A DNA stretch of 20,000 nucleotides from Porphyridium purpureum (taxonomy: Eukaryota). The DNA lies in contig VRMN01000003.1 in assembly GCA_008690995.1 (NCBI GenBank), positions 2,289,886 through 2,309,885 of the forward strand. Direction: 5' to 3'. Both the position numbers and the translations under genes were made by a program. Positions 3,001 through 20,000 of the stretch are shown here, piece by piece; within the stretch, counting starts at the first letter, position 1, and the number at the start of each line of letters is the position of its first letter. The notes below the pieces were generated by a model. It searched no databases, was not told where the DNA came from, and saw only the letters and a list, made by a program, of their open reading frames with translations.

Positions 3001-3119
3001 GACCTTGGCTTACCAAGGCCACCACAGCGGTCTCCATTGCCGCCCCTAGAGGTCTCGTAACGTCTGCGAGCCTCCTTTCCCTCTGACTGTCCGAGGAACC
3101 TCTCTACTCGAGCTCCTCG
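1..3119 (-). CDS. pol: Gypsy Pol polyprotein (aspartic protease, reverse transcriptase, RNase H, integrase), 3'-partial, in the -1 frame relative to gag
   Basis: Translated by hand; absent from the ORF track because it has no stop inside the window. Motifs found: FLIDSGATDNFM (DSG at 2861-2853), VYLDDILVF (YLDD at 1862-1851), RNase H VYTDRS...YEGELMAV...TDHEAL...NVVADTLSR, integrase H-x-GH...CHAC zinc motif, MDFV, IVSDRD, HPQTDGQTERVN, and FQVGDQVLV at the edge. DSG, YLDD, the RNase H Asp and the terminal motif are in the same frame. Confidence 0.95.
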
Positions 3120-3910
3120 TTTTTTGACTCCAGCGAGTCTCCCTCCAGCTGCTGGATAGTCTTCCTTGCCTCGGGACACTTCCTCGCGATGTGTCCCGGC
3201 CTTCCACAATTCCAGCATTTGAGCTCGGTACGAACACGCCTCTGACCCTGCACATGTCCCAGCTCCATCGGGACAGGTCCTTCCTGCGCTGCACGACCGA
3301 AAAATGGCGTCCTCACACTTGAATCACGCACGCCGCGGGTCGCATGAATGGCGTCGTCCACGACCACCGCCACCTGCGCAGCCTCCGCGAACGTACTCAC
3401 TCCTCGCTTGTACACTTCCAAGCGGACCTCGGGCTTCAGACCCCTCACAAAGCGGTCCATCATTTCTGCGTCCGACAAGTCCGGAATCACAAGTGCCGCG
3501 TCCTGAAAAGCCGCCACATACGCATGGGCCGGGCCTTTCTGCGAAAGACGCGTCAACTTGTCCCTTGCACGCCTGATCGAATCCTGCGGCGTGAACCGAG
3601 CACTCACGAGGGCAGCAAAATCATTCCACGTCGTGGGGATCTCCTGCGGGTAGCGCTCGCAATTCAGAACCCACCAATGAAGCGCCTCTCCCTCGAAATA
3701 GTCAGAAGCCAGGTCTACTGCACGCCTCTCCGCAAGCAGACGTTTCTCCAAATCGTCCGGGTGGATGCTCTCCAACAGCCGGCCCAAGATCTTCTTTCTC
3801 GCCTGGAACAACCACGTCTTCACAACCAGAAGGTCACGCTTCCCGTCGAACCTCATCAGACGGGCCTCCTTCGGGCCACGTGGTCCCAGCGTCTCCGAAT
3901 CAATCTCCAT
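3104..3910 (-). CDS. gag: Gypsy Gag (retrotransposon gag domain plus CCHC zinc knuckle), 268 aa
   Basis: ORF track. Contains GEALHWW...TWNDFAALVSARF...LSQKG...YVAAF...FVRGLKPEVR, a PVPMELG motif and the CWNCGRPGHIARKC knuckle. Confidence 0.95.
   Translation of the reverse strand: MEIDSETLGPRGPKEARLMRFDGKRDLLVVKTWLFQARKKILGRLLESIHPDDLEKRLLAERRAVDLASDYFEGEALHWWVLNCERYPQEIPTTWNDFAALVSARFTPQDSIRRARDKLTRLSQKGPAHAYVAAFQDAALVIPDLSDAEMMDRFVRGLKPEVRLEVYKRGVSTFAEAAQVAVVVDDAIHATRGVRDSSVRTPFFGRAAQEGPVPMELGHVQGQRRVRTELKCWNCGRPGHIARKCPEARKTIQQLEGDSLESKNEELE
3119..3125 (-). other. -1 ribosomal frameshift slippery heptamer A_AAA_AAC at the gag/pol overlap
   Basis: Minus strand reads TCA AAA AAC GAG in the gag frame, 5 codons before the gag stop. 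A -1 shift gives an open frame leading to the protease DSG motif. Confidence 0.8.
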
Positions 3911-4433
3911 GCTTTCTGGACTAAAGCACGCTCAACGACGACAACGACACAAACAGCAAGCCTCCGATGCTCACTTTCTCCAACAGCTGCGCGCACCACG
4001 AACGGGCTCGGTCGCCCTCACGAACACAAACCGACACACGAAGCTGTCCTCTCACGCACACACACGCACAGCAATCTTCCTCTGTTGCGCTGGATGGGGA
4101 GCGGCCCGGGCCTTTGCACTGGGGCGGGGATTATAGATGCGATCTTGTATGGAGGTGTTCGGCGCCTACCTTCGCAAAGGTGGTCGTGCGACACTAGGAT
4201 GAATCCTAGTGAAGGCTGACCGTTACGGCTCTTGCCTACTAATACGTGCTAAGGCAGAGAGCGAGTCCGCCGTCAAGGCCTAGGCCTATCGTACAGCCAA
4301 GACTGAGACCCGCTTCCACCCGTCGCACCCTCCGGATCGACTTACTCGAACCCCCTTGCCCGCAGACTCTCCCACCCAGGCAACCCCAGAGAAACTCTAA
4401 GAGAACCTTAGAGCAACCCCAGGTAACCAGCGA

Positions 4434-4441
4434 TGATACCA
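4434..4441 (-). other. Primer binding site (TGGTATCA, initiator tRNA-Met type)
   Basis: Minus strand reads ...GGTAACA-TT-TGGTATCATCGC, so TGG starts 2 nt inside the LTR end. Confidence 0.8.
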
Positions 4442-4539
4442 AATGTTACCAATGCTGTGCCTTTTTACTCTGCTTCTTCTTCTTTCCTCTTCTGTCTCCG
4501 AGCAAGACCTGACCGGCTAGTCCGGGCAGGCGCGTCGCC

Positions 4540-4547
4540 TTTTTATA
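4540..4547 (-). promoter_or_regulatory. LTR TATA box (TATAAAAA)
   Basis: Plus-strand tttttata inside the LTR, in the element's sense orientation. Confidence 0.65.
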
Positions 4548-4622
4548 CCCTTACTTCCGCCAGGGACAGCAAGGCGCCACGAGAAATGACAATGCAAATC
4601 ATTGGCATTTCTGCGCACGTCT

Positions 4623-4656
4623 AGAAGTTTCCGGAACCTCTAGAAGCTTCTAGAAA
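4623..4656. promoter_or_regulatory. Two adjacent heat-shock elements (nGAAnnTTCnnGAAn) in LTR U3
   Basis: aGAAgtTTCcgGAAc (4623-4637) and aGAAgcTTCtaGAAa (4642-4656), about 75-110 bp upstream of the TATA box. Confidence 0.7.
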
Positions 4657-6062
4657 CGGTTAAACGGTCTACCGGTTTAACGGCTTACCGGTTTCGGATT
4701 AACCGAACCGTTCTAGGTGACTGGGGTCGAACGGATAACAGTGGGCGAGCAGTGACTTTGCTCGATAACGCACGATCTATTGTGAGCCTGCCGTTTGGGC
4801 ATGTCGCCGAAGGCTTTTTGATCGCCGACGTGTAAATCCACGAGCCAACCTGCACGATCGCCGAGACGCTGCACGTGAGTTGGGAGGTTCCATTCTTTCG
4901 CCAGAAAAAATATTTGGCGAGCTTTGTGTAGCAGGATACGGTCGTATCAGCGCTCGCAGGTTTGCACAAGAGGCCAAGGACGCGATTTCGGTCTTGTCCG
5001 CGTAGTGTGTGAGTCGCACAGGATGTCAGCCCGTTTGATGATGGGCTGCTGCGGCGGGTACGTTTTTTTGATATTGTCGATGCCGTGATCATGAGAGACT
5101 ACTGCAAGGTACGTCATGTGGATGAAGAAGCGAAAGTGCTTTATTCTGCGTTCGGTCGCGATGGCGCGCCCCATGGAAGCGTCACCGTGTGCGACGATGT
5201 CGCGGGAATCGCGGCTTTACTCGGTTCAAACAGGAATATTCGCTTGCGCTTGCTGGCATCCACCGCATGTTAGCAGCGGGTAAGGATGAGAAACAGTGCG
5301 TATCCAAAACAGCTAGGAGAGGTTTGCGATTCATCTTCGCGCGCTAGAGCAATTCGTTGCGTTTGGACGGCGTGCTTGATCGCAGACGCCACGCACTTTG
5401 TCAAGATAGCAAGTATGCAGGTAGCGCACATGAATGGGAATGGGATACACAGCCTGGTTGCATGTGGCGAGGCTACGCCAAGCATGAAGGGGCATGACGC
5501 AAAGGCTGCGTGTGGGTGTAAAGGAATACTGTAATGCTCGCGACCGCGTCGCGTTGAGCTCGCGGGTGCAATCAATCGATTGCGACTTCTGAGGTTCTGC
5601 ATTGGCACCGTTCTCTGGGGCTTGGCCACTTTGGTTAGCATGCCGGTGTGTGACTCACCGCTGAAGTGGGCATGCGCGCGCTTCACGTGTTTTGGGTCAA
5701 TGTGTGCCTGGTAAAAGCTTGACCGTGTCTGCGGAGCCTGAGGGCCTCTCCGCGCGCGACTTGTGGAATGCGTGCTGTAATCCACGCACAGCACTCGAGG
5801 CATGCCCATCTTAAAGGGAGTCACTGCGTCGGGTATTGAAATCAGGCCATTGAGTTATGCTGTGCTCGCTCATTGTGGCGATCGCGCGTCTAAAAGCTGT
5901 ACCGCCATTGTCTCAAAAGGTGCGAAATTGGGGTCCTTGGACGTTAGGTACAGCACCGCGCCGCTGCTTTGTGGCACTTGGCGGCGCACGCCGAAATTTA
6001 GTCCGTCCAAGTACTAAATGGACCCGCTGGCGTGTAGAAGGATCTTTGCCTGCGCAAGTAGC

Positions 6063-6120
6063 GTTACTCTAGGGTTACTCTAGGGTTAGGGTTAAAGGAG
6101 GTTTTGCGGGTTGGGTTAGC
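6063..6120 (+). repeat. Telomere-like repeat tract: (GTTACTCTAGG)2 GTTAGG GTTA followed by degenerate GGGTT variants
   Basis: Read directly; same 11-mer as at 10545 and 18822. Confidence 0.75.
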
Positions 6121-6363
6121 TTACCTCATCTCTAGTACAGTTCACGATCCACACTGTACACTACTGTAGGGTCTTGTGCGGTGCCTTCGAAACGTGTACA
6201 ATACATCGTGACTGATAGTGCTAAGTATATTGTACTCGAACTCCACGCGCGACGACGATCAATAGTTGTGTACGCACGTTTTATACTTATTTTGATACTA
6301 CAGGAACAGCATACGCTCGACGAACCCGAGGGCCGGAGGGTAAGCTTTGCGGAAAGTGTTTGT

Positions 6364-9300
6364 CTAAGCATCATCATCACAACGCGTGCGGGCTTGGGCT
6401 CGTGCCGGAAATGCTCGTAGGACCCTGCGTTGAACGTGTGCGAATTGAAGATTGGCTACATCGACAGCTGCGTTGTATGGTGCGGAATTTGCGCGGGCGG
6501 CGAAGTCTCGAGCCTTCTGAATGAGCAGCCTTGAAAAGTCAGCCCGTGTCGGCTGTCTGTTTGGGTCAAAAGTACGCATCAAATGATTCAGTAGTTCCGT
6601 TTCAAACTGCGACAACACACTTCTTGGATTCTGTCGGCTCATGTCCCAGTTGAGCCAATGCCTGGTTTGTAGAAGAGAATCCAATGGATCCGCCTGTGGA
6701 CCCTGGACTACGATTGGATGATTGACTTGCTGGAATCGCTGCAGGTGGATTTCGATCCTGTTGCATGCCTGAGAATCATACTCTACAGAAGTATGTTTCA
6801 GGTGTAGTAGGGTCGTATGTTTCGTTTTCAAATTGATTGTGTCAGGTATACAAGAAATCAAACATTGCGCGGAGCTTTCGAGGAAGCCTAGGAGTGCCAG
6901 GAAGAACTGCTCGGGGTCTGGAAACTGCGCACGTGAGCGCGCGGCCATATCCTTGAACTTGCAACCCAAGTCGTCACGATCTGCCAACCTTGGGAGGTCG
7001 AACATTTTTGTCGCAATTGGACCCCAAACCCACTCATCCGCATATCCACGTGCATTTCGCTGCTTGGAAAAGATTTTCGTGCTGCAGAACGATCGCGCAG
7101 CGTCGAACTGACTTGGTTTAAGAACGACAAAGATATTATTTTCAAGAGCGAGCGCCCTCCAGCCCTCCTCTGTCATGCGGAAGGTTGCGTCGGTCTCACC
7201 GACAGGAAAAAAGTTAATTGATTGCATGCCGATGAAAAATAGTCTCACGAAGGATTTCCAGAAATCTTCGATAGTGGGCTCTGCCATGCTCAACAACTCA
7301 AGCAAGCTGTGCCTTTCCACTGGGCGTGATGCCTCGTCCGTGAAAGAAATCGAAGGCTTTCCAGCACCTCCAAAGTATGCCTGGGTAACGCGGTGTCCAC
7401 GAACTCTGCTGCTTGCGACCTGTGGAGGCGGCTTGAGGGCTTCTCGCGCATCACCATTTTCATGTCGAAATTGAAGCGTCAGCATGACCAACGCATGGCA
7501 CTCTTGCATTGGCTGAAACAAAACCTTGAGCTCGTGTGGCTCTGCATCATGACCGGAAACTTCCAGCCGGAAATTGACCATTCGCTGCCACACAACTTGC
7601 CCCGCCCATCCGCAGCCAACTGTCGCCTTGAAACCGCATGCGTCATACACAAGCTGCCGGTGCCATGTTTCATCCATGGGGTGGCGACGAAGCAAACCTG
7701 TCTGCAATGAGTACGCAGCGACCATTAGTGCGTGCAAAGGACGTCTTGCCAAGCTTATTTGTTCAAGAAACCTTCCAGTCGCACTGAAGTCACTCATACG
7801 CGCAAGTTGGCGTCCGGCACGTCGACTCAATACGTTGTAACAAGTTGCTGTGATTCTCAGATAGTCATTGAGATCTTGCGTTGAGCAAACGAGGACATAC
7901 CTCAAGCTAAAAAGCTGACTGACCCAAGCTAGCACAATTTGCCACAAGTTGGCTTCGACGCTCTCTCTGCCGTCATCGAAGTCGAAGAAGGTGGTCATGC
8001 GCAGCGGAACATGGCGCTCGCGAAGACTCATTCGAAATTCGCAGCGTACTCCATGGTCTGCGGTATCGGTCTCAGTCTCTGCTGCAATGGACTCTGCCAA
8101 TGCTTTTGTGGCACCATAAAGACTTTCAGCGTGCTCAAAGATGATGGAGCGATGCTTACTGATCCACGCGAGGGGCCTTAAAGCATGAGTATCAGAGCGG
8201 TATCGGCTGGTGTGGTATGCTTGGACGTAGCACGTATTTCGAGGAAAACCTCGACGTATGACACTCTCAGCACCACCTGCCGAAACAGAAGTTAACATAC
8301 TGCATGAGCCTCTATCCATTCGTGCACGGAATCCACTGACCTGTGGGAAATTGGCGAACCAGTCTTGCTGAATTATTCGCGGCGCGTAGCCTTTTGGAGT
8401 ATTTTTGATCCATGTTACTAAAGGGCTTTGCATGATATTGGAACTCCAAAGAACTGTATTTCCGCTTGACCCCGAAGTCCCTGCAGAAGGGATTGCGGTC
8501 ACCGCTAAGTCTACGTACACATGATTGCCCGGCACGGAACCATCGAACCCAACGCACCAACGTGACACAAAGCCTGTTTTCGCGTGGAATTGCACCATCA
8601 ATTGTCGCGTCACTTCCTGAAGGCTGCCGTTTGCAATTTTCTCCTTAAGTTCTACGAAAGTCAATCCCCAGAGCGTTGTGCTAACTAAACCTTTGAAGCC
8701 GATTGAGTCGATCAGAATCTGCCATCGACTCAAAAAATGCTGGTCCAAATAATCCACGACTCGCTGAAGAAAATGTCTTGCCACGTGAGCTCCAATAACA
8801 ATTGACAGAGATATAAATCTTGCACTTTCACCACGGGCTCGCTTTTTCGCGCTCTCGTAATTGGGCGGCATTCTCGCAAAAGTTACTGGATCCTTGACAT
8901 CTCGCACTGCCTCCAAGATAACAGATTCGTATATTAGTTTTCTGACATTCTCATCAGCCTGTGCTCCACGGATTACAATAAAAACGAGCTGCTGCTTATG
9001 GTTAGCCGCCGGCAACTCTCCGAGTTGGACAATCACAGTGTCGTCTCCAAAAGAAGGGAAACTGTCGGAATGGACTCGCAAGTTGTAAGCCTTGGACTCA
9101 ACTGCTCGGAGCCCGTGAAGGATAAGTGTGAATGATTCATCAGGGTGTAAACGGATGCCGCGCGTTACGACAATCAATGAATCGACGTCGAGCGTCATGT
9201 CAAACATCAAACTTTGCTCATTGACATGTTCAAACGGCGCATGGTGTGAAAGCGAACTCATTCCTAACCATAGATGATTGTCAGAAGCCACCCCATTTTC

Positions 9301-9411
9301 CGAGTTATCGCGAAAAGTATCACCTTGGAGCACCCACAGAATCCTCTCGTCATCAGTGACAATGCGTCGCATCCGATTCACCCATTCTCTGAAACTTGGC
9401 AGTTGTGCCAT
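6364..9411 (-). CDS. Large intronless hypothetical protein (~1015 aa from the ATG at 9411; frame open to a GTG at 9627)
   Basis: Uninterrupted 1087-codon ORF with globular-protein-like composition from MAQLPSFREW onward. The first 72 codons lie in repetitive sequence and begin with GTG. No confidently recognised domain. Confidence 0.85.
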   Translation of the reverse strand: MAQLPSFREWVNRMRRIVTDDERILWVLQGDTFRDNSENGVASDNHLWLGMSSLSHHAPFEHVNEQSLMFDMTLDVDSLIVVTRGIRLHPDESFTLILHGLRAVESKAYNLRVHSDSFPSFGDDTVIVQLGELPAANHKQQLVFIVIRGAQADENVRKLIYESVILEAVRDVKDPVTFARMPPNYESAKKRARGESARFISLSIVIGAHVARHFLQRVVDYLDQHFLSRWQILIDSIGFKGLVSTTLWGLTFVELKEKIANGSLQEVTRQLMVQFHAKTGFVSRWCVGFDGSVPGNHVYVDLAVTAIPSAGTSGSSGNTVLWSSNIMQSPLVTWIKNTPKGYAPRIIQQDWFANFPQVSGFRARMDRGSCSMLTSVSAGGAESVIRRGFPRNTCYVQAYHTSRYRSDTHALRPLAWISKHRSIIFEHAESLYGATKALAESIAAETETDTADHGVRCEFRMSLRERHVPLRMTTFFDFDDGRESVEANLWQIVLAWVSQLFSLRYVLVCSTQDLNDYLRITATCYNVLSRRAGRQLARMSDFSATGRFLEQISLARRPLHALMVAAYSLQTGLLRRHPMDETWHRQLVYDACGFKATVGCGWAGQVVWQRMVNFRLEVSGHDAEPHELKVLFQPMQECHALVMLTLQFRHENGDAREALKPPPQVASSRVRGHRVTQAYFGGAGKPSISFTDEASRPVERHSLLELLSMAEPTIEDFWKSFVRLFFIGMQSINFFPVGETDATFRMTEEGWRALALENNIFVVLKPSQFDAARSFCSTKIFSKQRNARGYADEWVWGPIATKMFDLPRLADRDDLGCKFKDMAARSRAQFPDPEQFFLALLGFLESSAQCLISCIPDTINLKTKHTTLLHLKHTSVEYDSQACNRIEIHLQRFQQVNHPIVVQGPQADPLDSLLQTRHWLNWDMSRQNPRSVLSQFETELLNHLMRTFDPNRQPTRADFSRLLIQKARDFAARANSAPYNAAVDVANLQFAHVQRRVLRAFPARAQARTRCDDDA

Positions 9412-9740
9412 ATCTGGTACAGCCGCGCGCGTCGTGAGTTCAGATGGGCCCGACCGCGGCGCAATGGCCGATGCGAGAAACAAAAACGACTCCGCGCAAT
9501 GCCACGAACGACGCGGCGGACGACCCGACCCAACGAACGCAGCGAATAAACACCACTCACGACAAACGACTCCGCACAGCAAAAGCGCCAAACAACGGGA
9601 CGCAATGAACGTGTCGAACGACGGCACCCGCCAAACGACCCCACGTAACGACCTCGACGAACGCCACGAGCCTTCGACGAGGCGAACAGCACCACGCGAT
9701 GAACGCGGCGTACGGCTCTACGCAACGAATGCAGCGAGGT

Positions 9741-9860
9741 CAACGCGACCAAAGCGATGAGACCAACGCGACCACAGCGACCAAAGCGATAAGACCAACG
9801 CGACCAAAGCAATGAGACCTTCGCAGCTTTCGCGGCCTTCGCGAACAACGCGACCAAAGC
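9741..9860. repeat. Degenerate ~9-bp tandem repeat (GACCAA(A/C)GC) upstream of the 1015-aa ORF
   Basis: caacgcgaccaaagcgatgagaccaacgcgaccacagcgaccaaagcgataagaccaacgcgaccaaagc... Confidence 0.75.
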
Positions 9861-9976
9861 CTGTAAATAGACGCACGTCTAAAGTATTAGCCCCAGTCAT
9901 CCACCGCGAAAAAAAAAGAAAGTTTCGATGTGATTACTGACTGGCAAAGGCGACGTAAATCACGACGTGCTTTGGG

Positions 9977-10544
9977 TTATGCAGGTAAAAAAAAGGAGTG
10001 CAAACTGTCTAAGGTCCAAAGTTGCGATTTGTATAGTAAAAGATATCGTTTTAATATAGAAAATATTTTACTATGGATGTCTGTGTCCAAAGTTGACTTT
10101 TCATAGGTAAATGCCAGTGTTTTAGTATGATAAATTGAGCATATAAAACGACCCCAAAATAGTGGTAGCAATGCATTACATGGACATCCCACGTTAGTTG
10201 TGACTAAGCATAGTAAAACAAGCATTTTGCTACCCGAGCATATAAAATTGACATTAAAATGTGATAATATAGACATCACGCTGGACTGAGGACGCAGTGC
10301 TTGTTGAGCGATCGGCGGGTGGTGCGTGAGGCGCGGCGGAGGAGTTGCGCGGGCGGGGCGGAGATGAGGGGCGCTGGCGGGCGCGGGCGGGGAGCGGAGA
10401 GAGGAGGGGCGCCGGCGGGCCGGAGGCGCAGGCGCGCGGGCGCAGTCGTGGGGCGCGTTGAGGCGCGGTTGGAGCGCGGGTCGGCAGGAGAAATGGGATT
10501 GTCTCGGGAAGTAGCGTGGGATCGCGAAGTGCAAAATGGACCTC
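9977..10544 (+). repeat. Dispersed repeat copy A (AT-rich block, GC-rich tail, and first bases ATGGACCTCG of a Sel1-gene paralog)
   Basis: Aligns by eye with 15737-16230 and 16940-17508 (shared gtccaaagttgcgatttgtatagtaaa, aatgcattacat, aagcatagtaaaaca, gctggactgaggac, gggatcgcgaagtgc.aaatggacctcg). Confidence 0.88.
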
Positions 10545-10563
10545 GTTACTCTAGGGTTACTCT
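10545..10563 (+). repeat. Telomere-like tract GTTACTCTAGGGTTACTCT at the 3' end of non-LTR copy 1
   Basis: Read directly; the same junction occurs at 18822-18841. Confidence 0.85.
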
Positions 10564-10623
10564 GAAATCGTTTTACATTATAAATCTAAAGGGCCTAAGC
10601 TCTGTACCTATGTATCAGCAAAG

Positions 10624-13600
10624 TCAGTGCGACTCTGCTTCCGATTCCGAGAGTACCTCGCCTACAAAGAGGCGCCTGCCCGTCTCCAGCCAGTGCTGCG
10701 AGGCAACTGGCAGAGTCGGGCCCGGGTGCCGTAGAAGCACCGCCGCCGCCACCGAGCGGTACACCGCGAGCGACAGCGACCGGTGGAGCGCCGTGCTCGC
10801 CAGCATCTTGCTGACTCCACGGTGCCGCATGTACGCCGCCACCAGAGTCTCCAGAAACGCGGCTCCGCACTGTTCGCGCCGGCCGTACGTGTCCAGAATG
10901 ACCGCCTGGAACGACACGCCAGCAGCGTCGCCGGTGCGCGCAGCAGCCTGGAAGGAGGCCTGCTTGCGACGCGCCGCTGCCGCCAGTGCCGCTCCGTCGG
11001 ACCGCCTGGTGCCGGTGCGGTCGGGCACCACCACCGCCACATCGACCCACGTGCTGTCCACGCGCAGGTCGCCCGGCCGGCGCAAGTCTGCCGCGCGCCG
11101 GGAAGGCGCGCACCGCGCTCCACCGGCAAGCCAGCGCGCGCAAAGGCAACCACGGCGTCGACCACCAGTGCCGTGCCGACCGTACCGCGACGGCCCGGGA
11201 TGGCACTTGAGCGCGTGGTGACCGTGCTGGTCCAGCGCGGCCCCAGACGGCATCCGAGCTGCCCGGAGCGCCGGACACGGACGCCGCGCTGCGTGGCTCA
11301 CAGACAGGCCAGCATGTGCCGCACGGCCGCGCGCCATGCATCTGCGCTCAGCGGCGCGCTTCCGTGCGTGCCGGCCAGCTGCGTGGCAGACGGCATCCCG
11401 AGCCACGCCAGCGCGTGCGGCGAGCTGACGCTGCGACGTCGGTGAAAGTCTGGGTCGGACGGGGCCGGCGCGTGGGACCAATCTGAGCACCATTGTCGAT
11501 AAAAGCGACGGCTCCCACGTGCCTGCGAGTCCAGCAGGGCTTCCACATCTTCGTCTGGCTCCAGGCGCCACTGCGCCACGGCGTGTGCGTCTCCGTCAAA
11601 CCTTCGCCACCACTGCGCGAGCGACGGAGGGTACACGCGTGCGGGCGGGTTGTCCACCACGCGCGCGGCAGCACGACTGCCGGCGGCAAACGCAAACGGC
11701 GCAATGTCTGCCACTGCGGTCAGTCCCAAGCCGCCAAGCGAGCACGGCAGCCGCCACTCGGCCTTGCACGGCTCGCCGACCTCGTGTGCCATCACACCCA
11801 GCGCGCGCGCGACAATGCTGCGCCACGCGCGGTCAAACTCGGCAAAGATGCGAGTCACGACGGGCGGAGGCATGGTGCGCGCCAGGTGCATCAGGCGCTT
11901 TGGCCCGACGCTGCCCCGCAGGAGGTAGAACGCCTCTTCGGGGTGGCTGAGCTTGGCCACCTGCTCCGCCAGCTGGAGCACCTGCGCGCTCGCGTTGGTG
12001 ATCGGCACGAGCGACTCGCCACTGCCGGTAAAGTCGAGCGGCACACCGAGCAGCTGCGCTTGGTCCCACGCCAGACGCGGCAGGTCGGCGAGTCCCGCGG
12101 GCACGACTGCCGTGTGCATTCCGGGAGGCAGTACCAGCTGCGTCTTGGTGCGGTTCACGCACATGCCGTGCACGGCCGCGTCGCTCGAAAAGGCGTCCAG
12201 GAAGCCTTCCAGCTGCGCGAGCGGCCCCACAATGCTGCCGTCGTCCAAGTACCAGAACGACGACAAGCCCGGCGACTCGGTGTCTGCCAGCACCTTGTGC
12301 AGCACCAGCGAGAACAGCAAGGGCCCCAGCGGGTCGCCCTGCTGCACGCCGCACGCGCTGGCCAGCACATGGGCGCCCACTCGCAGCGGAGCCGGATGCG
12401 CGTACGTTGAGCGCACCAGCGGCCACAGCGCGGGGAAACGGCCCTGCACGATGCGCATCAGCGTGGGCCGGTCGACGCAGTTGAACGCGTTCGCAATGTC
12501 GACGAGCAGCACGGCTGTGCCTGGACTCTGCATCGCGGCAGGCGCGTCCCCAGCACCGCGCCTTCGAGCCCGGCCGGGCGTCCCACGCCGTACTGGTCGG
12601 GCCGGAGCGACTCGGCTGCGTCGCTGCCCAGGTGTGCCAGCACCAGCTTGCCCAGCACGCGCCGCAGCAGCTCGCCCACTGCAATCGGTCGGACGCCGCC
12701 GTCCTTCTTCTTGAGCGGGATGAGGCGTGCGTGGCTCCACAGCGCGCCAGCTTGCGGATGCAGACCAACACTGGCGATGCGCTTGAACGCGAGAGCCACG
12801 GCCCCGAGCGCCGTGTCACCCGCCACGGGCGTGCGGATGACCTGCTGCAGCACGCCTATGGACCACCGCGACGGTCCGCACCCGCTGGTGTGCGGAATGG
12901 CCAGAATGGACTTGCGCACCGCCTGCGCGTCCCACGGCACGCGCATGCACTGCAGCTGGTCGATACTGACCGACTCGACTGGTGCGACGAGCGCTGCGTC
13001 GTGGCTGCCGCTGCGAGCCCCTGCCTCTGGATGCAGCTCGCGCAAGCGCGCCAGCACCGAGTCCGTGACGTCGTGCACACCCGCCGACTCGACCAGTCGC
13101 GCCGCGGCGCCAATGTGGTTGGCGCGCACATGCTGCACGATGCGGTGCTCCACGGCCTCTGGTGGTATGGGTCTGAGGTGTTGACCGTCCACCACAGGCA
13201 CCGAGTCGAGCAGTGGCTCGAGCGCATCGGAGCGCCACATCTTGAGCCGCGTCGCCAGGTATCTTGCCCGCGCGCGCGTGCTCTGGCGCTCCATGGGCAG
13301 GCACAGCACCAAAGTCGGAAACACCCACAGCTTTCCGAGCGCGCGGACTTGTGCGGCCTCGGACGCGGCTTCGGCCAGCTCCGTGAGCATGCTGCTGAAC
13401 TCGAGCGCAACGTCCGGCGCAAACTTTGCCGGTACGCGCTTCCACGTGCGCACGCGCAGCCCCAGCACCCAATCTACCGTTTGAAGAATGGTGAGTATGG
13501 GGGCGTCGAGCAGCGGCGACGGCGGATGCGCAGCGGCGTGACGCGCCGTCGACACATGCGTGTCTGCGGCCGTGTCGGAGCCACTGCGAGTGTCGTCGCA

Positions 13601-15171
13601 TGCTCCGCTTTACGCCCGCTCGCTGTTACGGAACTGCACGCGACCGCCGTGCCCTTCAAATCTCGGCACAACGCGCAGGATCCCGGCATCGACTGCGCTG
13701 GTGGCGCACGGACAGCGCAGGCAGCAAGCACATCGCGCCCGCCAGCCCAGCGGCCAGTAACCTCTGAGCGCGTCCGGTGGCACTGCGGCAAGTGTTTCAG
13801 CCGAGTGATTACTGCCCGCCAAGTGCCGCAGCAGCCCAGCTGGCTCGGCCCACGAGGCCTCACAGCCTGCCACGGGGCACGCGTTCCACAGCGCTCGGCA
13901 CGCTGGACACTGGCACGCGTCTTGGGGCTGCACGTCGCGCACCGCCCATCCGCACGCGTTTCGCCTCAAGTGCAGGCTGGACAGAAGCTCGGCACTCGCT
14001 GGCTCCGTCGGATGTGCCGCACGCCAGTGCTTGCCCAGCTGAGCCGCACTCTGGTAGCGTCGCATGCACTCGGCGGCCGGACATGCGTGCGGCGCTTCGA
14101 GCTGCGCCATCCGAGCCACGCTGCGTCGCGAAATGTCAAAGCCCGCCGGACGGAGCATGCGAGCAGAGCTGCGAACAGATGCGCTGTGGCCAAGCACGGC
14201 ATCCCTGACCGCTATGTGTGCGGCAGGCCCCGCACGCTGGCGCGGTCGTCGTGCGGACCGACGTGTGGCGCGACCGTCTGCCGAGTCTGCGACACTGTGC
14301 GGAGATGCCACTGGCGCGTGCGTGGCTGCCAGCACCCTAGAGCTGGAGATGTGCGCATCCACCACCGCACTCTCTCGCGCAGGACCAGCACGCTCACGCA
14401 GTTCCACTGGTCCACCCGGCCGACTTTGTAGCCGGCCTCGCCCAGACGCTCGACGAGCGCGGGGGCGTGCGGGAGCCCATTCCGCGTCGCTTTCCTCACT
14501 TGAGGCTAGAAGACTTGCGCCGCGCGGACCGGGCCCTTCCCACGAGTCAGAAAGTGTCTCACTCATGAGCCCCGAAGGGCGAAGCCGCCGAGGGAGCCGG
14601 AGTCACAGCGTGGACCTCCGGAAGTGCGGGAGCGGCAAACTCTTGGCCGCTGGCACGGCCCACTGCGGAACGGTGGGCGTGGGCCGTCTTGCACTGCATG
14701 CAGCGTGCGCGGTGCTGGTCCCGAGAGTGCGCAGAGCCGCTGAGCGCATGCCATGCTCCACACGGGTCTGCAGCGAGTCCTGCCTCGGCAAGCGCGTCTG
14801 TCGAGACCGCGTGATGCGCCGCCGTGGCACTTGGTTGCGTGGCGCACCATGCTGGCCTCGCGCGCCGCTCGGAACAAGCAGGCCGGAAACGGGCAGCGCA
14901 GCGCCTCGTCCGAGCTTTCGGAACGACTCGAGTCGCCGGCGTCAGAAGTTCCGGCGACCGGTGCATGCTGCACAGCGTCATTCAACAGACAGGCGGCAGT
15001 GCTCAGACCCGCACTGTTCTGCTGCGCGTGCTCAACGCCTCTGTCTACTGCAGACTCTTGCTGCGCTGCTTCCGCCGTCACTCTAGGCACTTCTGCAGCC
15101 GCCCGGGAACGCTTGGGCAAAGTAGCCCGGGACGGAGACACCGTGCGCGATAACGCGGCAGCGGCGGGTCG
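10624..15171 (-). pseudogene. Zinc finger-RT-RLE polyprotein of the CRE-like element, split by several frameshifts
   Basis: Fragments: 14563-15141 (CPFPAC..HATKCH), 13610-14566 (CPAAEC..HWRAAH; CPVAGC..HLAGSNH), 12458-13555 (RT N-terminal part), 11298-~12545 (RT core and thumb), 10624-~11310 (DQHGHHALKC, GRH, RPGD, VDVAV, RRKQ, FQAVILDTYG). The frameshifts may be decay or assembly indels. Confidence 0.85.
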
Positions 15172-15377
15172 CTAGGGTTACAGGCGTTTTTGAGGTACGG
15201 TGGGGCAGATCCTAGGGTAGGGTTTCTCTGCGCATACAGGTACAGCGATTACACTTGATCCAGCAGTACAGTATGTATAGGTTACAGGCGTTTTTGAGGT
15301 AGGGTGGGGCGTAGCGTAGGGTTCCTCACTTCGTGTTGAGGGTGCAGTGAGTACACTGGTCCTAGGGTTACATAGGG
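15172..15377 (+). repeat. Cluster of degenerate telomere-like motifs (CTAGGGTTAC, TAGGGTAGGGTTTCTCT, TAGGGTT) with an internal ~33-bp direct repeat
   Basis: TAGGG(TT) occurs repeatedly; tag(g)gttacaggcgtttttgaggta(c/g)ggtggggc at ~15173 and ~15278. Confidence 0.65.
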
Positions 15378-15409
15378 CGTTTGCACTCGCACTCGCTTGA
15401 AACCTCGTT

Positions 15410-15665
15410 TTATATAGTAAAACGTGGTTGTTTTGATATAAGAAACAGCGAGGTTTTAGTGATTTTTGCATAGTACAATGCCTCTGTTTTAGTAAGAAAA
15501 GTGTGTACTATAAAGGATAATTTATTCGCTATGAGAAACTAAGCATGTAAAAACGACCCAAACATTGCGGTGTAATGCATTGTATTGCCATCCCTAATGG
15601 AGAACGAGGAAGCATATAAAAACGACACTGTTTGGATATCTTACTAGAGCATACGAGAATGCCAT
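15410..15665 (+). repeat. Dispersed repeat copy B (strongly diverged AT-rich block)
   Basis: Collinear motifs tatagtaaaa, tgttttagta, agcat.taaaaacgaccc, gtaatgcatt, catccc, aagcata.aaaac, gagcata. Confidence 0.6.
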
Positions 15666-15736
15666 AGTATTATGATGATGGTGACGGCCAAAGGGACGAG
15701 ATTGACGCAAGGGCGGAGGTGTGTGGGCGATGGTGC

Positions 15737-16230
15737 GTTATACAGGTGGAAAAAAAAGTAGGGCAGATTGTCCAAAGTCCAAAGTTGCGATTTGTATAGT
15801 AAAATGGTATCGTTTTAATATAGAAAAATTTTACTATAGAGGTTCGTGTCCAAAGTTGACTTTTTCATATGTAAATGGCATTGTTTTAGTACGAAAAATT
15901 TAGCATAGAAAGACGACCCCCAAAAATGGGTGGTAATGCATTACATGGGCATCCCGAATTGGCTGTGAATAAGCATAGTAAAACAGTATTAGTTTGCTAT
16001 GGTACCGAGCATGGAAAATTGGCACTGAAATGTCATAAAATGCGCATCAAGCTGGACTGAGGACGAAGTGCCTGTTGCGCGATCAGCGGGTGGTGCGGGC
16101 GGCGGGGTGAGAGACGTGGAGCGCGAACGGTTGGGCGCGGGTTGGCGGGCGCGAACTGAGCGCCAGCGAGCACAGGCGATTCTGGGCGCAGGCGCAGTCG
16201 GGCGGTGGGGCGCAGTGAGGCGTGGGCACG
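15737..16230 (+). repeat. Dispersed repeat copy C
   Basis: Near-collinear with copies A and D. Confidence 0.88.
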
Positions 16231-16760
16231 GGCGCGCGGAGGTACGCGAGTGGTGTCGGGCGGTGGCGTCGCGCGCGTCGGCGGGTAACGACTGGGCAAG
16301 ATTTTGGTTGGCGTCTCGCACGGCACGAGCCAGCACTTGGAGCAAGGCGCGAGGTTGGGGCGCGCAGCAGCTGAGAAATGACACACGGAAGCCATATGGT
16401 AGGTTGATGTTAAAAAACATTAAAAAATTGTTTACTCAAGTATGCTACAAATTTGTCATTCAAAATGGATATTGAATGATAGCCCGTGCTCACGCGCTCA
16501 CAACGATATGCTTTGTATGTGAAACGATGCTTGTATGGCTGAGATATATGACTGTAAGTACCTTTGCAGCGGGTACGCCATTCGCAATGGTGGGTACATG
16601 ATCCGCAGCCATGGGTCCGGCATCCGCATATGCTGAACCCCTCAAATCACGGGTGCCAGCAGAACTTCTACCCTAGAGGTACAGTATCTTCATACTGGGG
16701 ACGCGGTATCCGCTTATGATGGGCATGCCAGCCGCAGCATGTGTACAGTCACGCGAAACA

Positions 16761-16860
16761 TAGTGGGCACGTGATTTGCAGGGTGGGTACGTGATCCGCA
16801 AGGTGGGGACGCGAGCCGCAAGGTGGGTACGCGAGCCGTAAAGTGGGTACGTGATCCGCA
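16761..16860. repeat. 20-bp minisatellite, 5 units (consensus aggtgggtacgtgatccgca)
   Basis: tagtgggcacgtgatttgca / gggtgggtacgtgatccgca / aggtggggacgcgagccgca / aggtgggtacgcgagccgta / aagtgggtacgtgatccgca; related motifs at ~16590 and ~16697. Confidence 0.85.
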
Positions 16861-16939
16861 CGTTGGGTCGAGTCAATAAGGGTACCATAATAAAATGGTG
16901 TTGATTTACTATAAGTGAGTACAACAACGATACTGTACA

Positions 16940-17508
16940 GTTGCACAGGGGAAAAGAAGAGTAGATTGTCCATAGTCCAACGTTGCGTTCTGCATAGTAC
17001 CACGGTATCGTTTTAATATGAAAATAATTTACCATAGCGGTTCGTGTCCATAGTTGCCTTTTTTATAGGTGAATGGCATTGTTTTAGGCTGAAAGATTTA
17101 GCATAGAAAGACGACCCCCAAAATGGGTGGTAATGCATTACATAGGCATCCCGAATTCGCGGTGAATAAGCATAGTAAAACAGTATCATTTTGATATGAT
17201 ACCCGAGCATAGCAAATTACCATTGAAATGTCATAAAATGCGCATCAAGCTGGACTCAGGACAAAGTGCCTGTTGCGCGATCAGCGGGTGGTGCGGGCGG
17301 CGGGGTGAGAGACGTGGAGCGCGAACGGTTGAGGCCATGAGCGGGCGCGAACTGAGCGCAGGCGAACCATGAGCGCCAGTCGAGGCGCAGGCGCGGAGCG
17401 CAGTCGAGCGGTGGGGCGCGTTGGGGCGCGTTGGGGCGTGGGCCGGCAAGGAGAAATGAGATTGTCTTGGGAAGTAGAGTGGGATCGCGAAGTGCGAAAT
17501 GGACCTCG
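16940..17508 (+). repeat. Dispersed repeat copy D, running into the Sel1-repeat gene start
   Basis: Near-collinear with copies A and C. Confidence 0.88.
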
Positions 17509-18676
17509 CTGCAGCGCAGCAGGGTGAAGGAGAAGCCACTTTCACGGAGCATGCGAGCGGCGAGAAGGAGAAGCAAGATTTGCGGCGTACTGCGCCGCCG
17601 CCGCCGAGCAAGCGTGCCGAAAGGAGGCGCAAAATTCGCCGGACAATGTGCCGCGGAGCATGTGCGGCGCGAGGAGGTGCGAGGTGATGTTGCACAACGC
17701 GATGGCGCAGCCGCCGCCGAGCAAGCGCGCCACAAGGAGGCACGGGATTCGCCGCACAACGGGCCAGTGCTGTGGAGCATGCGCGACGCAATGAGATGCG
17801 AAAAGATGTTGCACGACGCGAGGGTGCAGCCGCCGCCGTGCAAGCGCGCCGCTAGGAAGAGGCGCAAGAGCTTGCCGGATAACGCACCGTTGCCGCGGAG
17901 CACGCGCGCCATGAGCAGGTGCGAGATGTCACACAACGCGCCACTGTAACGGAGCAGGCGCACCGCGAGGAGGCGCGAGATTCGGCCGAACAATGCGACG
18001 GCGCCGCCGCCGCCGAGCAAGCGCACCGCGACGCTGCAGACGGCCAGCAACGTGGTCAGATTGTCGAGGACGACGACGGCCTTGCGGAATCGCTGATGTG
18101 GTTACGAGAGATGGCGCTGTTTGGAGACGCGTACGCGTAGGTCAGGCCGGGCCATGTCTATAGCGAGGGTTGGGGCAGGGTGCGCGAGGACGGTCACGCG
18201 GCGGTCGAGTGGTGGCACAAGGCCGCGGAACAGGGGCTTGCAGTGGCGCAGTTTTACTTGGGCTTTCTTTACAAAGGTGGGGATGGTGATCTGCCAAGAA
18301 CGGAAGCGCAGCGGTCGAGGAGTTCCGCAAAGTCGCGGATCATGGCGATACGCGGGCGCCGTTTCTTTTGAGCTTTTGCTGTGACAGCGGGCGGGGCGGT
18401 GCGCCAGAGGACAAGCGCTCAGCGATCGAGTGGCCACGCAAGGCCGCCGAATATGGAGACGCACTGGCACAGTGCGATTTGGGCGCTTCGTTTTCTAATG
18501 AGTCAGGCAGGCTGTGCGAGGACAAGCTCGCGATGGGTTAGTGGTGGCGCAAGGCCACGGAGTAAGGAACCGCAGGGAAGCAATAAAATTTATGCACTTG
18601 CTACCGTATTGGTTAAGGCAGTGTGCGCAAATCCAGACGCGACAGCTGCGCAAGGGATGAGCGCGGGTGCGCTTGA
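17499..18676 (+). pseudogene. Sel1-like repeat (SLR/TPR) protein pseudogene with N-terminal A/E/Q/R-rich repeats
   Basis: SLMWLREMALFGDAYA*, AVEWWHKAAEQGLAVAQFYLGFLYKGGDG, FRKVADHGDTRAPFLL, AIEWPRKAAEYGDALAQCDLG, WWRKATE*G. Multiple stops and frameshifts. Begins MDLAAAQQGEGE. Confidence 0.85.
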
Positions 18677-18690
18677 GCACACGTGAGAAT

Positions 18691-18757
18691 GAGCATGAGT
18701 GAGCACGAGTGAGCACGAGTGAGCACGAGTGAGCACGAGTGAGCACGAGTGAGCACG
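18691..18757. repeat. 10-bp minisatellite (GAGCACGAGT)n, 5 perfect units plus variants
   Basis: Read directly. Confidence 0.95.
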
Positions 18758-18766
18758 GATGATCGC

Positions 18767-18820
18767 ACAGAACACTACTCCAGACGACAGAACACCACCG
18801 AAGACTACAGAACACTACTG
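18767..18820. repeat. 20-bp tandem repeat (acagaacactact...), ~2.7 units, directly abutting the telomere-like tract
   Basis: acagaacactactccagacg / acagaacaccaccgaagact / acagaacactactg. Confidence 0.8.
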
Positions 18821-18821
18821 A

Positions 18822-20000
18822 GGTTACTCTAGGGTTACTCTGAAATCGTTTTACATTATAAATCTAAAGGGCCTAAGCTCTGTACCTATGTATCAGCAAA
18901 GTCAGTGCGACTCTGCTTCCGATTCCGAGAGTACCTCGCCTACAAAGAGGCGCCTGCCCGTCTCCAGCCAGTGCTGCGAGGCAACTGACAGAGTCGGGCC
19001 CGGGTGCCGTAGAAGCACCGCCGCCGCCACCGAGCGGTATACCGCGAGCGACAGCGACCGGTGGAGCGCCGTGCTTGCCAGCATCTGGCTTACTCCACGG
19101 TGCCGCATGTACGCCGCCACCAGAGTCTCCAGAAACGCGGCTCCACACTGTTCGCGCCGGCCGTACGTGTCCAGAATGACCGCCTGGAACGACACGCCAG
19201 CAGCGTCGCCAGTGCGCGCAGCAGCCTGGAAGGAGGCCTGCTTGCGACGCGCCGCTGCCGCGAGTGCCGCTCCGTCGGACCGCCTGGTGCCGGTGCGGTC
19301 GAGGAACGCCTATACATCGTGCGTGCTGTCCGCGCCAGGTCGCCCGGCCAGCGCAAGTCAGCCACGCCGGGAAGGCCTCATATCCGCGGCAAATACAGCG
19401 GCGCGCTCGAGGCAAACCACGGCGTCGACCACCAGTGCGTGCCGACCGTACCGCGACGGCCGAGATAATAACGCGAGCGCGTGGTGACCGTGCTGGTGTA
19501 CCCAATACCAGACGGCTGTGCCCGATGGCGCGGACACGGACGCCGCGCGCTGCGTGGCTCTGAACGAACCGCTGTCGCTGACCACGCCATGCAGCTGCAC
19601 TCGGCGCCTTCCATTGCGATGCCAGCCAGCTGCGTGGCAGACGGCGCATCTGACACGCCAGCGCGGTGCGGCGAGCCCTGACGCCTTTGCGACGTCGGTG
19701 AGGATCTGGGTCGGACGGGGCCGGCGCGTGGGACCAATCTGAGCACAATTGTCGATAAAAGCGACGGCTCCCACGTGCCTGCGAGTCCAGCAGGGCTTCC
19801 ACATCTTCGTCTGGCTCCAAGCGCCACTGCGCCACGGCGTGTGCGTCTCCGTCAAACGTTCGCCACCACTGCGCGAGCGACGGAGGGTACACGCGTGCGG
19901 GCGGGTTGTCCACCACGCGCGCGGCAGCACGACTGCCGGCGGCAAACGCAAACGGCGCAATGTCTGCCACTGCGGTCAGTCCCAAGCCGCCAAGCGAGCA
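18822..20000 (-). mobile_element. CRE-clade non-LTR retrotransposon, copy 2 (3' end; continues beyond the right edge)
   Basis: GGTTACTCTAGGGTTACTCT followed by sequence nearly identical to 10564 onward (3' UTR, RLE C-terminus, post-RT region). Confidence 0.93.

What the first reader, a model, noticed from the sequence alone, without database searches (positions are those of the whole stretch)
10545..20000. Putative telomere-targeting CRE-clade retrotransposon whose 3' end is complementary to the telomeric G-strand
Seen: two copies with unrelated left flanks both end in GTTACTCTAGGGTTACTCT|gaaatcg (10545 and 18822), with no poly(A) tail and a ~60-nt 3' UTR, in the same orientation. Known: CRE-clade RLE elements are often site-specific, and MoTeR (Magnaporthe) and Cnl1 (Cryptococcus) are telomere-associated. 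Inference: the RNA 3' end (..AGAGUAACCCUAGAGUAAC, ~1.7 repeats, similar in size to a telomerase template) could anneal to a G-rich chromosome end or nick and prime reverse transcription. That would extend the chromosome with the element's 3' end facing the centromere, as HeT-A/TART do. This may be an undescribed telomere-specific family adapted to an 11-nt repeat.
Basis: partly seen in the sequence, partly recalled or inferred. Interest (0 to 1): 0.85.

Follow-up and report, generated by a model that had tools for sequence, protein, structure and literature searches.

The report
Red-algal telomere repeat and its retrotransposon
In the red microalga Porphyridium purpureum, a jumping gene sits again and again at one exact point of an abundant 11-letter DNA repeat that is likely this species' so-far unidentified chromosome-end (telomere) sequence, and it probably inserts by pairing a few letters of its RNA end with that repeat.

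Summary
The window holds two copies of an R2-like non-LTR retrotransposon (reverse transcriptase plus restriction-like endonuclease, CRE-type) of Porphyridium purpureum. The 11-mer (TTACTCTAGGG)n is not just the element's tail. It forms pure tandem arrays (closed 41-nt contig at about 75-80x single-copy depth; raw reads with about 120 nt of repeat), mixes with TTAGGG units, and flanks other units. It also caps truncated sequences in one polarity through 1-3-nt in-frame seeds, as telomere healing does. All 6 displayed 3' junctions read CTCT|element, with 4-26 nt of repeat before them. 4 of 4 5'-truncated copies continue into repeat. Five poly(A) reads end after only 5-7 repeat-complementary bases, not 19. 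Best reading: a MoTeR-like telomere-targeted element that likely nicks or uses the G-strand at CTCT^AGGG, with its 5' end facing the chromosome end. The 11-mer is then the telomere motif that a 2013 study failed to find in this species. Not shown: terminal position, telomerase, and a tree with labelled CRE references. One copy cluster appears to lie inside the largest contig.

The parts
6063..6094 (+). 11-mer tract 0 (26 nt perfect, then TTAGGG-type units); not followed by the retrotransposon
   Evidence: depth spike in this bin in runs X2 and X4
6095..10544 (-). Unit X: repeat-bounded unit with a 1015-aa orphan ORF (6364-9411); its right end is cut at 10544 by tract 1
   Evidence: the homologous stretch 16952-17508 continues without the repeat
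10545..10563 (+). 11-mer tract 1 (19 nt), proximal target tract; begins at a 1-nt (G) seed of the truncated flank
10564..15173 (-). Retrotransposon copy 1, 5'-truncated; single ORF broken in the window at indels that short-read contigs do not share
10564..10623 (-). 60-nt 3' UTR; poly(A) added 5-7 nt into the repeat in 5 RNA reads; the last 34 nt are shared with another element (12 reads)
10870..11270 (-). Zinc knuckle + restriction-like endonuclease region (H-x3-C..RH..E..RPGD..D..K); bounds approximate
12045..12900 (-). Reverse transcriptase (RPIAVGE, QQGDPLGP, WYLDDG); bounds approximate
   Evidence: Pfam RVT_1 E 1.2e-11
13805..14083 (-). Two N-terminal C2H2-type zinc fingers
15172..15181 (+). 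Distal repeat tract CT|AGGGTTAC at the 5' truncation of copy 1 (2-nt seed CT)
15182..16340 (.). Unit Y: ORF-less relative of unit X (both ends homologous), again starting at a repeat tract; right bound approximate
   Evidence: X1 contig joins repeat to 15280 at depth 44.5
16952..17508 (.). Third copy of the X/Y right end, uninterrupted; serves as the empty site for the 10544 junction
18822..18841 (+). 11-mer tract 2 (20 nt)
   Evidence: the same flank is seen in run X1
18842..20000 (-). Retrotransposon copy 2, 3' part; runs off the window

Best explanation
This is a single-ORF RT + restriction-like-endonuclease retrotransposon of Porphyridium purpureum whose copies abut the tandem repeat (TTACTCTAGGG)n at one register, and that repeat is likely the telomere of this alga. 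Shown: the protein architecture; the long tandem arrays; the fixed 3' junction CTCT|GAAATCG; repeat behind 5'-truncated copies; and a polyadenylated RNA ending AGAGU(AA). Inferred: the endonuclease nicks the G-rich strand at CTCT^AGGG (or a natural end in that register is used). The 5-7 terminal RNA bases pair with the TTACTCT-3' end, so reverse transcription starts inside the poly(A), which is not copied. The element comes to lie with its 5' end towards the chromosome end. The short tract left of each copy is internalised telomere, first seeded by telomerase at a break. Repeated breakage, healing and insertion build MoTeR-like head-to-tail arrays.
For: Architecture: RVT_1, C2H2 fingers, RLE motif, and a full-length fold match to R2 (8gh6, E 1.6e-14). 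A published repeat table lists LINE/CRE and LINE/CRE-Cnl1 for the species. Arrays: one 41-nt contig (31+11-1, a closed repeat cycle) at depth 1222.7 against 15.3-16.6 single-copy in X1; summed depth 654,774 (X2) and 3.75 million (X4); 3 of 8 raw reads carry a median 91 further repeat letters. That is at least about 75-80, 85-120 and 360-460 units. Junctions: 6 of 6 displayed 3' junctions end in CTCT. 4 of 4 displayed 5' truncations (12221, 13926, 13955, 15173) run into repeat through 2-3-nt in-frame seeds (P about 6e-4; 5 of 7 junctions with a known intact sequence, P about 1.5e-3). MoTeR shows the same seeds (17 of 23). Repeat also caps a gypsy fragment, unit X and unit Y, always G-strand outward. 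TTAGGG units are interspersed. Depth falls from 3' to 5' and differs between runs. Three families co-occur on contigs and fuse head-to-tail in two gene models. 17 of 26 contigs carrying them are under 100 kb (452 kb in total).
Against: No call shows the repeat at a physical chromosome end; only short-read contigs and RNA reads were available, and no genome. At least 5 gene models lie on the 5.7-Mb contig. Two named ones are about 700 accession numbers before the inferred end of the series, which suggests an interior cluster if numbering follows position (inference). In X1 the pure repeat totals only about 0.9 kb, which is little for all chromosome ends. Telomerase was not verified for this species, and TRAP assays on three red algae were negative with other primers. 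The poly(A) evidence is 5 reads from one run and cannot be assigned to an autonomous copy. The junction tables were cut (203 loose ends and 6 joints hidden), so junctions in another register may exist. The strict MoTeR/SLACS/CRE REL pattern was not matched (0 of 11 Porphyridium proteins, 0 of 100 aligned rows). No labelled CRE1/SLACS/Cnl1/MoTeR sequence was retrieved for a tree.
Confidence: 0.72

Rival explanations
1. One reading: the RNA itself carries 1-2 or more repeats (for example by read-through), anneals to broken or natural ends through 1-4 bases and writes repeat plus element in one step, so the element heals and extends chromosome ends as HeT-A/TART or Athena do.
For: Variable tract length with short seeds fits priming at different points of an RNA tail as well as it fits telomerase seeding. 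One junction has only CTCT. 22 RNA reads span longer tracts into flanks. TRAP assays were negative in three red algae.
Against: Poly(A) reads end after 5-7 nt. Pure arrays of about 120 nt or more, TTAGGG stutter units, and tracts at units X, Y and behind 5'-truncated copies occur without an element 3' end. The 2013 TRAP and probe sets did not include this motif.
Confidence: 0.13
2. The 11-mer is an interstitial or subtelomeric minisatellite, not the terminal telomere, and the element is a satellite-specific CRE.
For: Modest total array length in X1; an apparent interior cluster on the largest contig; terminal position not observed.
Against: One-polarity capping of five kinds of truncated sequence through short seeds, the TnAGGG-like make-up, and TTAGGG variants are what end-healing gives and a passive satellite does not. 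Relatives by architecture (MoTeR, FoTeR, Cnl1) are telomeric.
Confidence: 0.12
3. The 19-mer is merely the element's own tandem tail or an assembly artefact.
For: The window copies carry many indels that short reads do not confirm.
Against: The junction is present in contigs of runs X1 and X2 and in raw RNA reads of X21, and arrays exist apart from the element.
Confidence: 0.03

Closest known systems
MoTeR1/MoTeR2 (Magnaporthe oryzae) and FoTeR (Fusarium oxysporum)
   Same: Single ORF with RT and C-terminal REL. Copies are embedded in short repeat tracts, head to tail, with the 5' end outward. 5'-truncated copies are joined to repeat through 1-7-nt seeds. A non-autonomous partner shares the 3' end (here: a 10-copy contig sharing 10766-10984, and reads sharing the last 34 nt). 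Passages: PMC7367193, PMC12857005.
   Different: Red-algal host; 11-nt instead of 6-nt target; REL spacing differs (C-x9-H-x3-C-x8-RH[A/E], RPGD/RPYD instead of RHD..RAD/RPD); three sister families at 45-53% identity. Terminal location is shown for MoTeR but only inferred here.
Cnl1 (Cryptococcus neoformans/deneoformans)
   Same: Subtelomeric head-to-tail arrays with strain-dependent copy number (bioRxiv 2021.08.11.455996, passages). RepeatModeler labels part of the P. purpureum LINEs CRE-Cnl1 (PMC6811547 supplement).
   Different: Cnl1 also inserts into genes. A fixed nucleotide register in the telomere repeat was not among the passages read.
HeT-A/TART/TAHRE (Drosophila)
   Same: Orientation, 3' end towards the centromere (recalled); mixed arrays of several families.
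   Different: Jockey clade (PMC10088271), and they replace telomerase repeats. Here simple-repeat arrays persist and DNA copies have no poly(A).
R2 (solved structures 8gh6, 9nl3)
   Same: Overall RT-RLE fold; target-primed reverse transcription at a fixed site.
   Different: rDNA target; about 15% identity.
Galdieria TTTATT(T)AGGG and Cyanidioschyzon AATGGGGGG telomere motifs
   Same: Unusual, long red-algal candidate motifs (PMC3622300, PMC7046594); the Galdieria motif is also TT...AGGG of 10-11 nt.
   Different: Different sequence; these are Cyanidiophyceae.

Membership tests
RLE-type non-LTR retrotransposon (R2 group) | Non-LTR reverse transcriptase in a single long ORF | tested here: met
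   RVT_1; best PDB hits are R2 proteins; sister copies of 1260-1773 aa
RLE-type non-LTR retrotransposon (R2 group) | C-terminal zinc knuckle + PD-(D/E)xK-like endonuclease | tested here: met
   H-x3-C..RH..E..RP.D..D..K conserved across the 100-row alignment (H-x3-4-C..RH in 84 of 100); model pLDDT 79.5 matches R2 over its length
RLE-type non-LTR retrotransposon (R2 group) | N-terminal C2H2 zinc fingers | tested here: met
   two fingers in families 1 and 2
RLE-type non-LTR retrotransposon (R2 group) | 5'-truncated copies, constant 3' end | tested here: met
   3'-to-5' depth gradient and four truncation joints
CRE clade | RT groups with CRE1/SLACS/Cnl1/MoTeR in a tree | not testable with these tools
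   No labelled reference was returned. The quick tree of 98 rows shows only that the three Porphyridium families form one long branch, SH-aLRT 100. Indirect: published automated labels CRE and CRE-Cnl1 for this species.
CRE clade | REL consensus as printed for MoTeR/SLACS/CRE (RHD/N, R/KPD spacing) | tested here: inconclusive
   Strict pattern: 0 of 11 Porphyridium proteins and 0 of 100 aligned rows. The same residues with looser spacing: 8 of 11.
Telomere-targeted retrotransposon (MoTeR/FoTeR type) | Both ends joined to the target repeat, one orientation | tested here: met
   6 of 6 displayed 3' junctions and 4 of 4 displayed 5' junctions; tables truncated
Telomere-targeted retrotransposon (MoTeR/FoTeR type) | Full-length copies confined to chromosome ends | tested here: inconclusive
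Telomeric repeat | G-rich short unit in long tandem arrays at high copy | tested here: met
Telomeric repeat | Added at breaks through short in-frame seeds, G-strand outward | tested here: met
   seeds of 2, 3, 2, 2, 2, 1 and 0 nt at 7 junctions with a known intact sequence
Telomeric repeat | Terminal position (BAL31, long reads) and synthesis by telomerase | not testable with these tools
   only short-read contigs and RNA reads were served
HeT-A/TART type | Replaces simple telomeric repeats; poly(A)-tailed Jockey-clade element | tested here: not met
   simple-repeat arrays present; RLE architecture; no poly(A) at 6 of 6 DNA junctions

The most novel reading that the evidence does not exclude
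Porphyridium chromosome ends are maintained partly by this retrotransposon lineage. Three sister families and their non-autonomous partners use the terminal G-strand (or a break ending in CTCT) as primer through RNA-DNA pairing, skip their own poly(A), and add repeat-plus-element blocks. That would make them the first telomere-maintaining retroelements in red algae, acting beside or instead of a weak telomerase on an undescribed 11-nt telomere.
Probability: 0.13. Interest if true: 0.87.

Novelty: new variant of a known kind. Interest (0 to 1): 0.66.

Why it matters
Red-algal telomeres are a stated gap. TRAP failed on three rhodophyte strains, BAL31/Southern with Cyanidioschyzon-type and human-type probes gave no signal in P. 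purpureum (PMC3622300), and a 2020 review calls the information mostly missing (PMC7046594). A concrete 11-nt candidate explains those negative results and can be tested with one probe or one long-read run. A long unit also makes the telomerase RNA searchable by its template. The element would extend MoTeR-type telomere targeting from fungi to Rhodophyta. The fixed register and the 5-7-nt RNA complementarity give an exact substrate for an in vitro TPRT assay. Copy number seems to differ from about 1 to several tens between sequenced samples, which matters for the genome stability of a biotechnology alga.

Tried and rejected
No own genome was held, so the copy census and distance to contig ends could not be run. 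The metagenome scan for the 19-mer gave 4 hits with no other likeness to the window, judged chance. Scans of the prokaryote and viral collections gave 0 hits, and there were no related viral loci. Unit X protein: no Pfam match, only 3 non-self homologues among 1.84 billion representatives, no Atlas hit, AlphaFold pLDDT 33.8 and unusable, so no function is assigned. A profile search for labelled CRE references returned none in the best 120. The careful tree did not finish; a quick tree was used, leaving out P0003 and P0018. Literature searches for the motif in several permutations, for Porphyridium + telomere (30 of 43 listed), and for red alga + telomere + non-LTR found no report. PMC6811547 has 0 occurrences of 'telomer' in text or supplements. 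The one TeloBase supplement has no Porphyridium. Not seen: the online TeloBase, Repbase, the supplement of PMC8287931 and Starnes 2012; any of them could hold prior notice. Three look-ups in earlier scan findings returned nothing. RNA strand was not interpreted because library polarity was unclear. The two 9-nt minus-strand matches were treated as chance.
Full report
1. Observation. The motif, its two positions, the shared orientation, the unrelated flanks, the 60-nt 3' UTR and the lack of a DNA poly(A) are as described. A 19-nt match to the repeat is expected 9e-8 times per window. The window holds five tracts of 10 nt or more (6063, 10545, 15172, 15362, 18822), all with the G-rich strand on +. 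The longest, 6063-6094, has no retrotransposon behind it and contains TTAGGG units.

2. Host and element. The RT matches proteins named Porphyridium purpureum at 95-100% identity, so the host is taken to be that red alga. The element has C2H2 fingers, an RT and a zinc knuckle plus restriction-like endonuclease. An AlphaFold model of a sister copy (pLDDT 79.5) matches R2 over its length. The species holds three families at 45-53% identity that form one long branch among 98 retrieved relatives (quick tree, SH-aLRT 100; P0003 and P0018 left out). No labelled CRE1/SLACS/Cnl1/MoTeR sequence was retrieved, so clade membership rests on architecture and on the automated labels LINE/CRE (24) and LINE/CRE-Cnl1 (11) in a supplement table of PMC6811547. 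The strict REL pattern printed in PMC12857005 was not matched; a looser one was, in 8 of 11 proteins. Several of the frame breaks in the window copy coincide with indels that short-read contigs do not share (12 of 40 indel rows shown), so they are probably assembly errors.

3. What the 11-mer is. Laid on 5700-15720, runs X2 and X4 spike in the bin of tract 0 (44,501 and 130,100 against about 650 and 740-2,000 nearby) and show joints that go back along the repeat. Laid on a 34-nt pure-repeat bait, X1 gives one 41-nt contig, the length of a closed 11-nt cycle at k=31, at depth 1222.7 against 15.3-16.6 for single-copy DNA. X2 and X4 sum to 654,774 and 3.75 million. 3 of 8 raw RNA-library reads continue for a median 91 more repeat letters. 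Dividing by 11 phases gives at least about 75-80, 85-120 and 360-460 units. These are rough lower bounds: the tool warns that summed depth is no copy number, and I recall, without a call, that such abundances may be capped. The repeat therefore exists apart from the element.

4. Junctions (22 of 225 loose ends and 12 of 18 letter-joints were displayed). On the 3' side, six junctions have 4, 12, 19, 20, 23 and 26 nt of repeat between unrelated flanks and the element; all end CTCT|GAAATCG and none has poly(A). On the 5' side, copy 1 is cut at 15173 (other copies continue, matching the N-terminus of P0125) and joins AGGGTTAC. Further truncations at 12221, 13926 and 13955 also run into repeat. Their last 2-3 bases are in frame with the repeat in 4 of 4 cases (P about 6e-4 for random joins). 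Over 7 junctions with a known intact sequence the seeds are 2, 3, 2, 2, 2, 1 and 0 nt (P about 1.5e-3). Repeat also caps a gypsy fragment, unit X and unit Y, always G-strand outward. MoTeR shows the same: 17 of 23 truncated copies with 1-7-nt seeds, and 19 of 24 new telomeres from 1-4-nt seeds (PMC7367193). In RNA, 5 reads of run X21 carry poly(A) right after AGAGU(AA), that is 5-7 target-complementary bases, while 22 reads run through longer tracts into flanks.

5. Mechanism. Shown: architecture, arrays, fixed 3' register, repeat beyond 5' truncations, short RNA complementarity. Inferred: a G-strand nick at CTCT^AGGG or an end in that register; pairing of AGAGUAA with TTACTCT-3'; priming inside the poly(A); cDNA growing towards the chromosome end; telomerase seeding of the tracts. 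The TTAGGG units would arise by re-alignment on the second TA of the unit. Proximal tracts stay under 2.5 units, as stable interstitial tracts do in Magnaporthe, although contigs at k=31 cannot display longer ones.

6. Genomic distribution. Gene models of the three families lie on 26 contigs of listed length, 17 of them under 100 kb (452 kb together), and families share contigs. Two models fuse family 1 and family 3 head to tail (P0010, P0125). Two large contigs share the same element/unit-Y junction (P0004, P0126). A 13.5-kb contig carries both a family-1 copy and a unit-X homologue. Against: at least five models sit on the 5.7-Mb contig, two named ones about 700 accession numbers before the inferred end of the series, which suggests an interior cluster or a mis-join. 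Approximate copy number from single pieces is about 1 (X1, plus a 10-copy derivative sharing 10766-10984), 5-10 (X2) and 30-50 (X4).

7. Literature, as seen. PMC3622300: passages and section 13; P. purpureum gave no BAL31/Southern signal with two probes, and TRAP failed in three red algae. PMC7046594: passages. PMC7367193: passages and section 25. PMC12857005: first ninth and passages. PMC10088271: passages. bioRxiv 2021.08.11.455996: passages. PMC6811547: passages and supplement hits, no mention of telomeres. PMC7658794: one passage. PMC10767889: supplement search only. Searches showed no report of this motif or of a telomeric element in red algae. The online TeloBase, Repbase, Starnes 2012 and one oversize supplement were not seen.

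8. Verdict. A real feature. It works like MoTeR/FoTeR; it is an RLE-type element, very probably CRE clade, on a new host lineage and a new target. The main gain is a testable candidate for the telomere repeat of P. purpureum. Confidence in the best explanation 0.72; interest 0.66.

Noticed in passing
window 6095-10544 (ORF 6364-9411, minus): Unit X encodes an intact 1015-aa orphan protein. Its only homologues are other Porphyridium proteins, mostly on small contigs, and one Logan fragment. It starts at an 11-mer tract and may be a Y'-like or telomere-linked mobile unit.
   Followed up: partly
window 15182-16340 and 16952-17508: Unit Y shares both ends with unit X but lacks the ORF; it also starts at a repeat tract (about 3 copies in X1 and X2). 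It looks like a deletion derivative. A 104-bp duplication lies at its start.
   Followed up: partly
window 10564-10984 (runs X1 and X21): A 670-nt contig at about 10 copies shares 10766-10984 and then diverges; 12 RNA reads share only the last 34 nt. Candidates for MoTeR2-like non-autonomous partners.
   Followed up: no
window 1-4700, minus: Apparently intact Ty3/gypsy element (gag with CCHC; protease-RT-RNase H-integrase) with overlapping gag and pol frames. RNA reads show another copy cut inside gag-pol and capped by the 11-mer plus a retrotransposon 3' end.
   Followed up: partly
window 5964 (run X2): A minor contig (depth 175 against about 500-670) joins 5964 directly to the repeat, a second possible healing site 100 bp inward of tract 0.
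   Followed up: no
window 17510-18820: Degenerate 119-bp repeats, a broken stretch resembling Sel1 repeats (label recalled, not tested), and 10- and 20-bp tandem arrays directly before tract 2.
   Followed up: no
window 11090-11310, 12539, 13612-13770, 14815, 19300-19700: Dense indels inside both element copies; those covered disagree with short-read contigs, so public gene models of these copies are probably mis-spliced artefacts.
   Followed up: partly
L003:2826-2858: An unrelated metagenome contig holds three perfect units of the 11-mer inside a degenerate repeat region; judged chance.
   Followed up: partly
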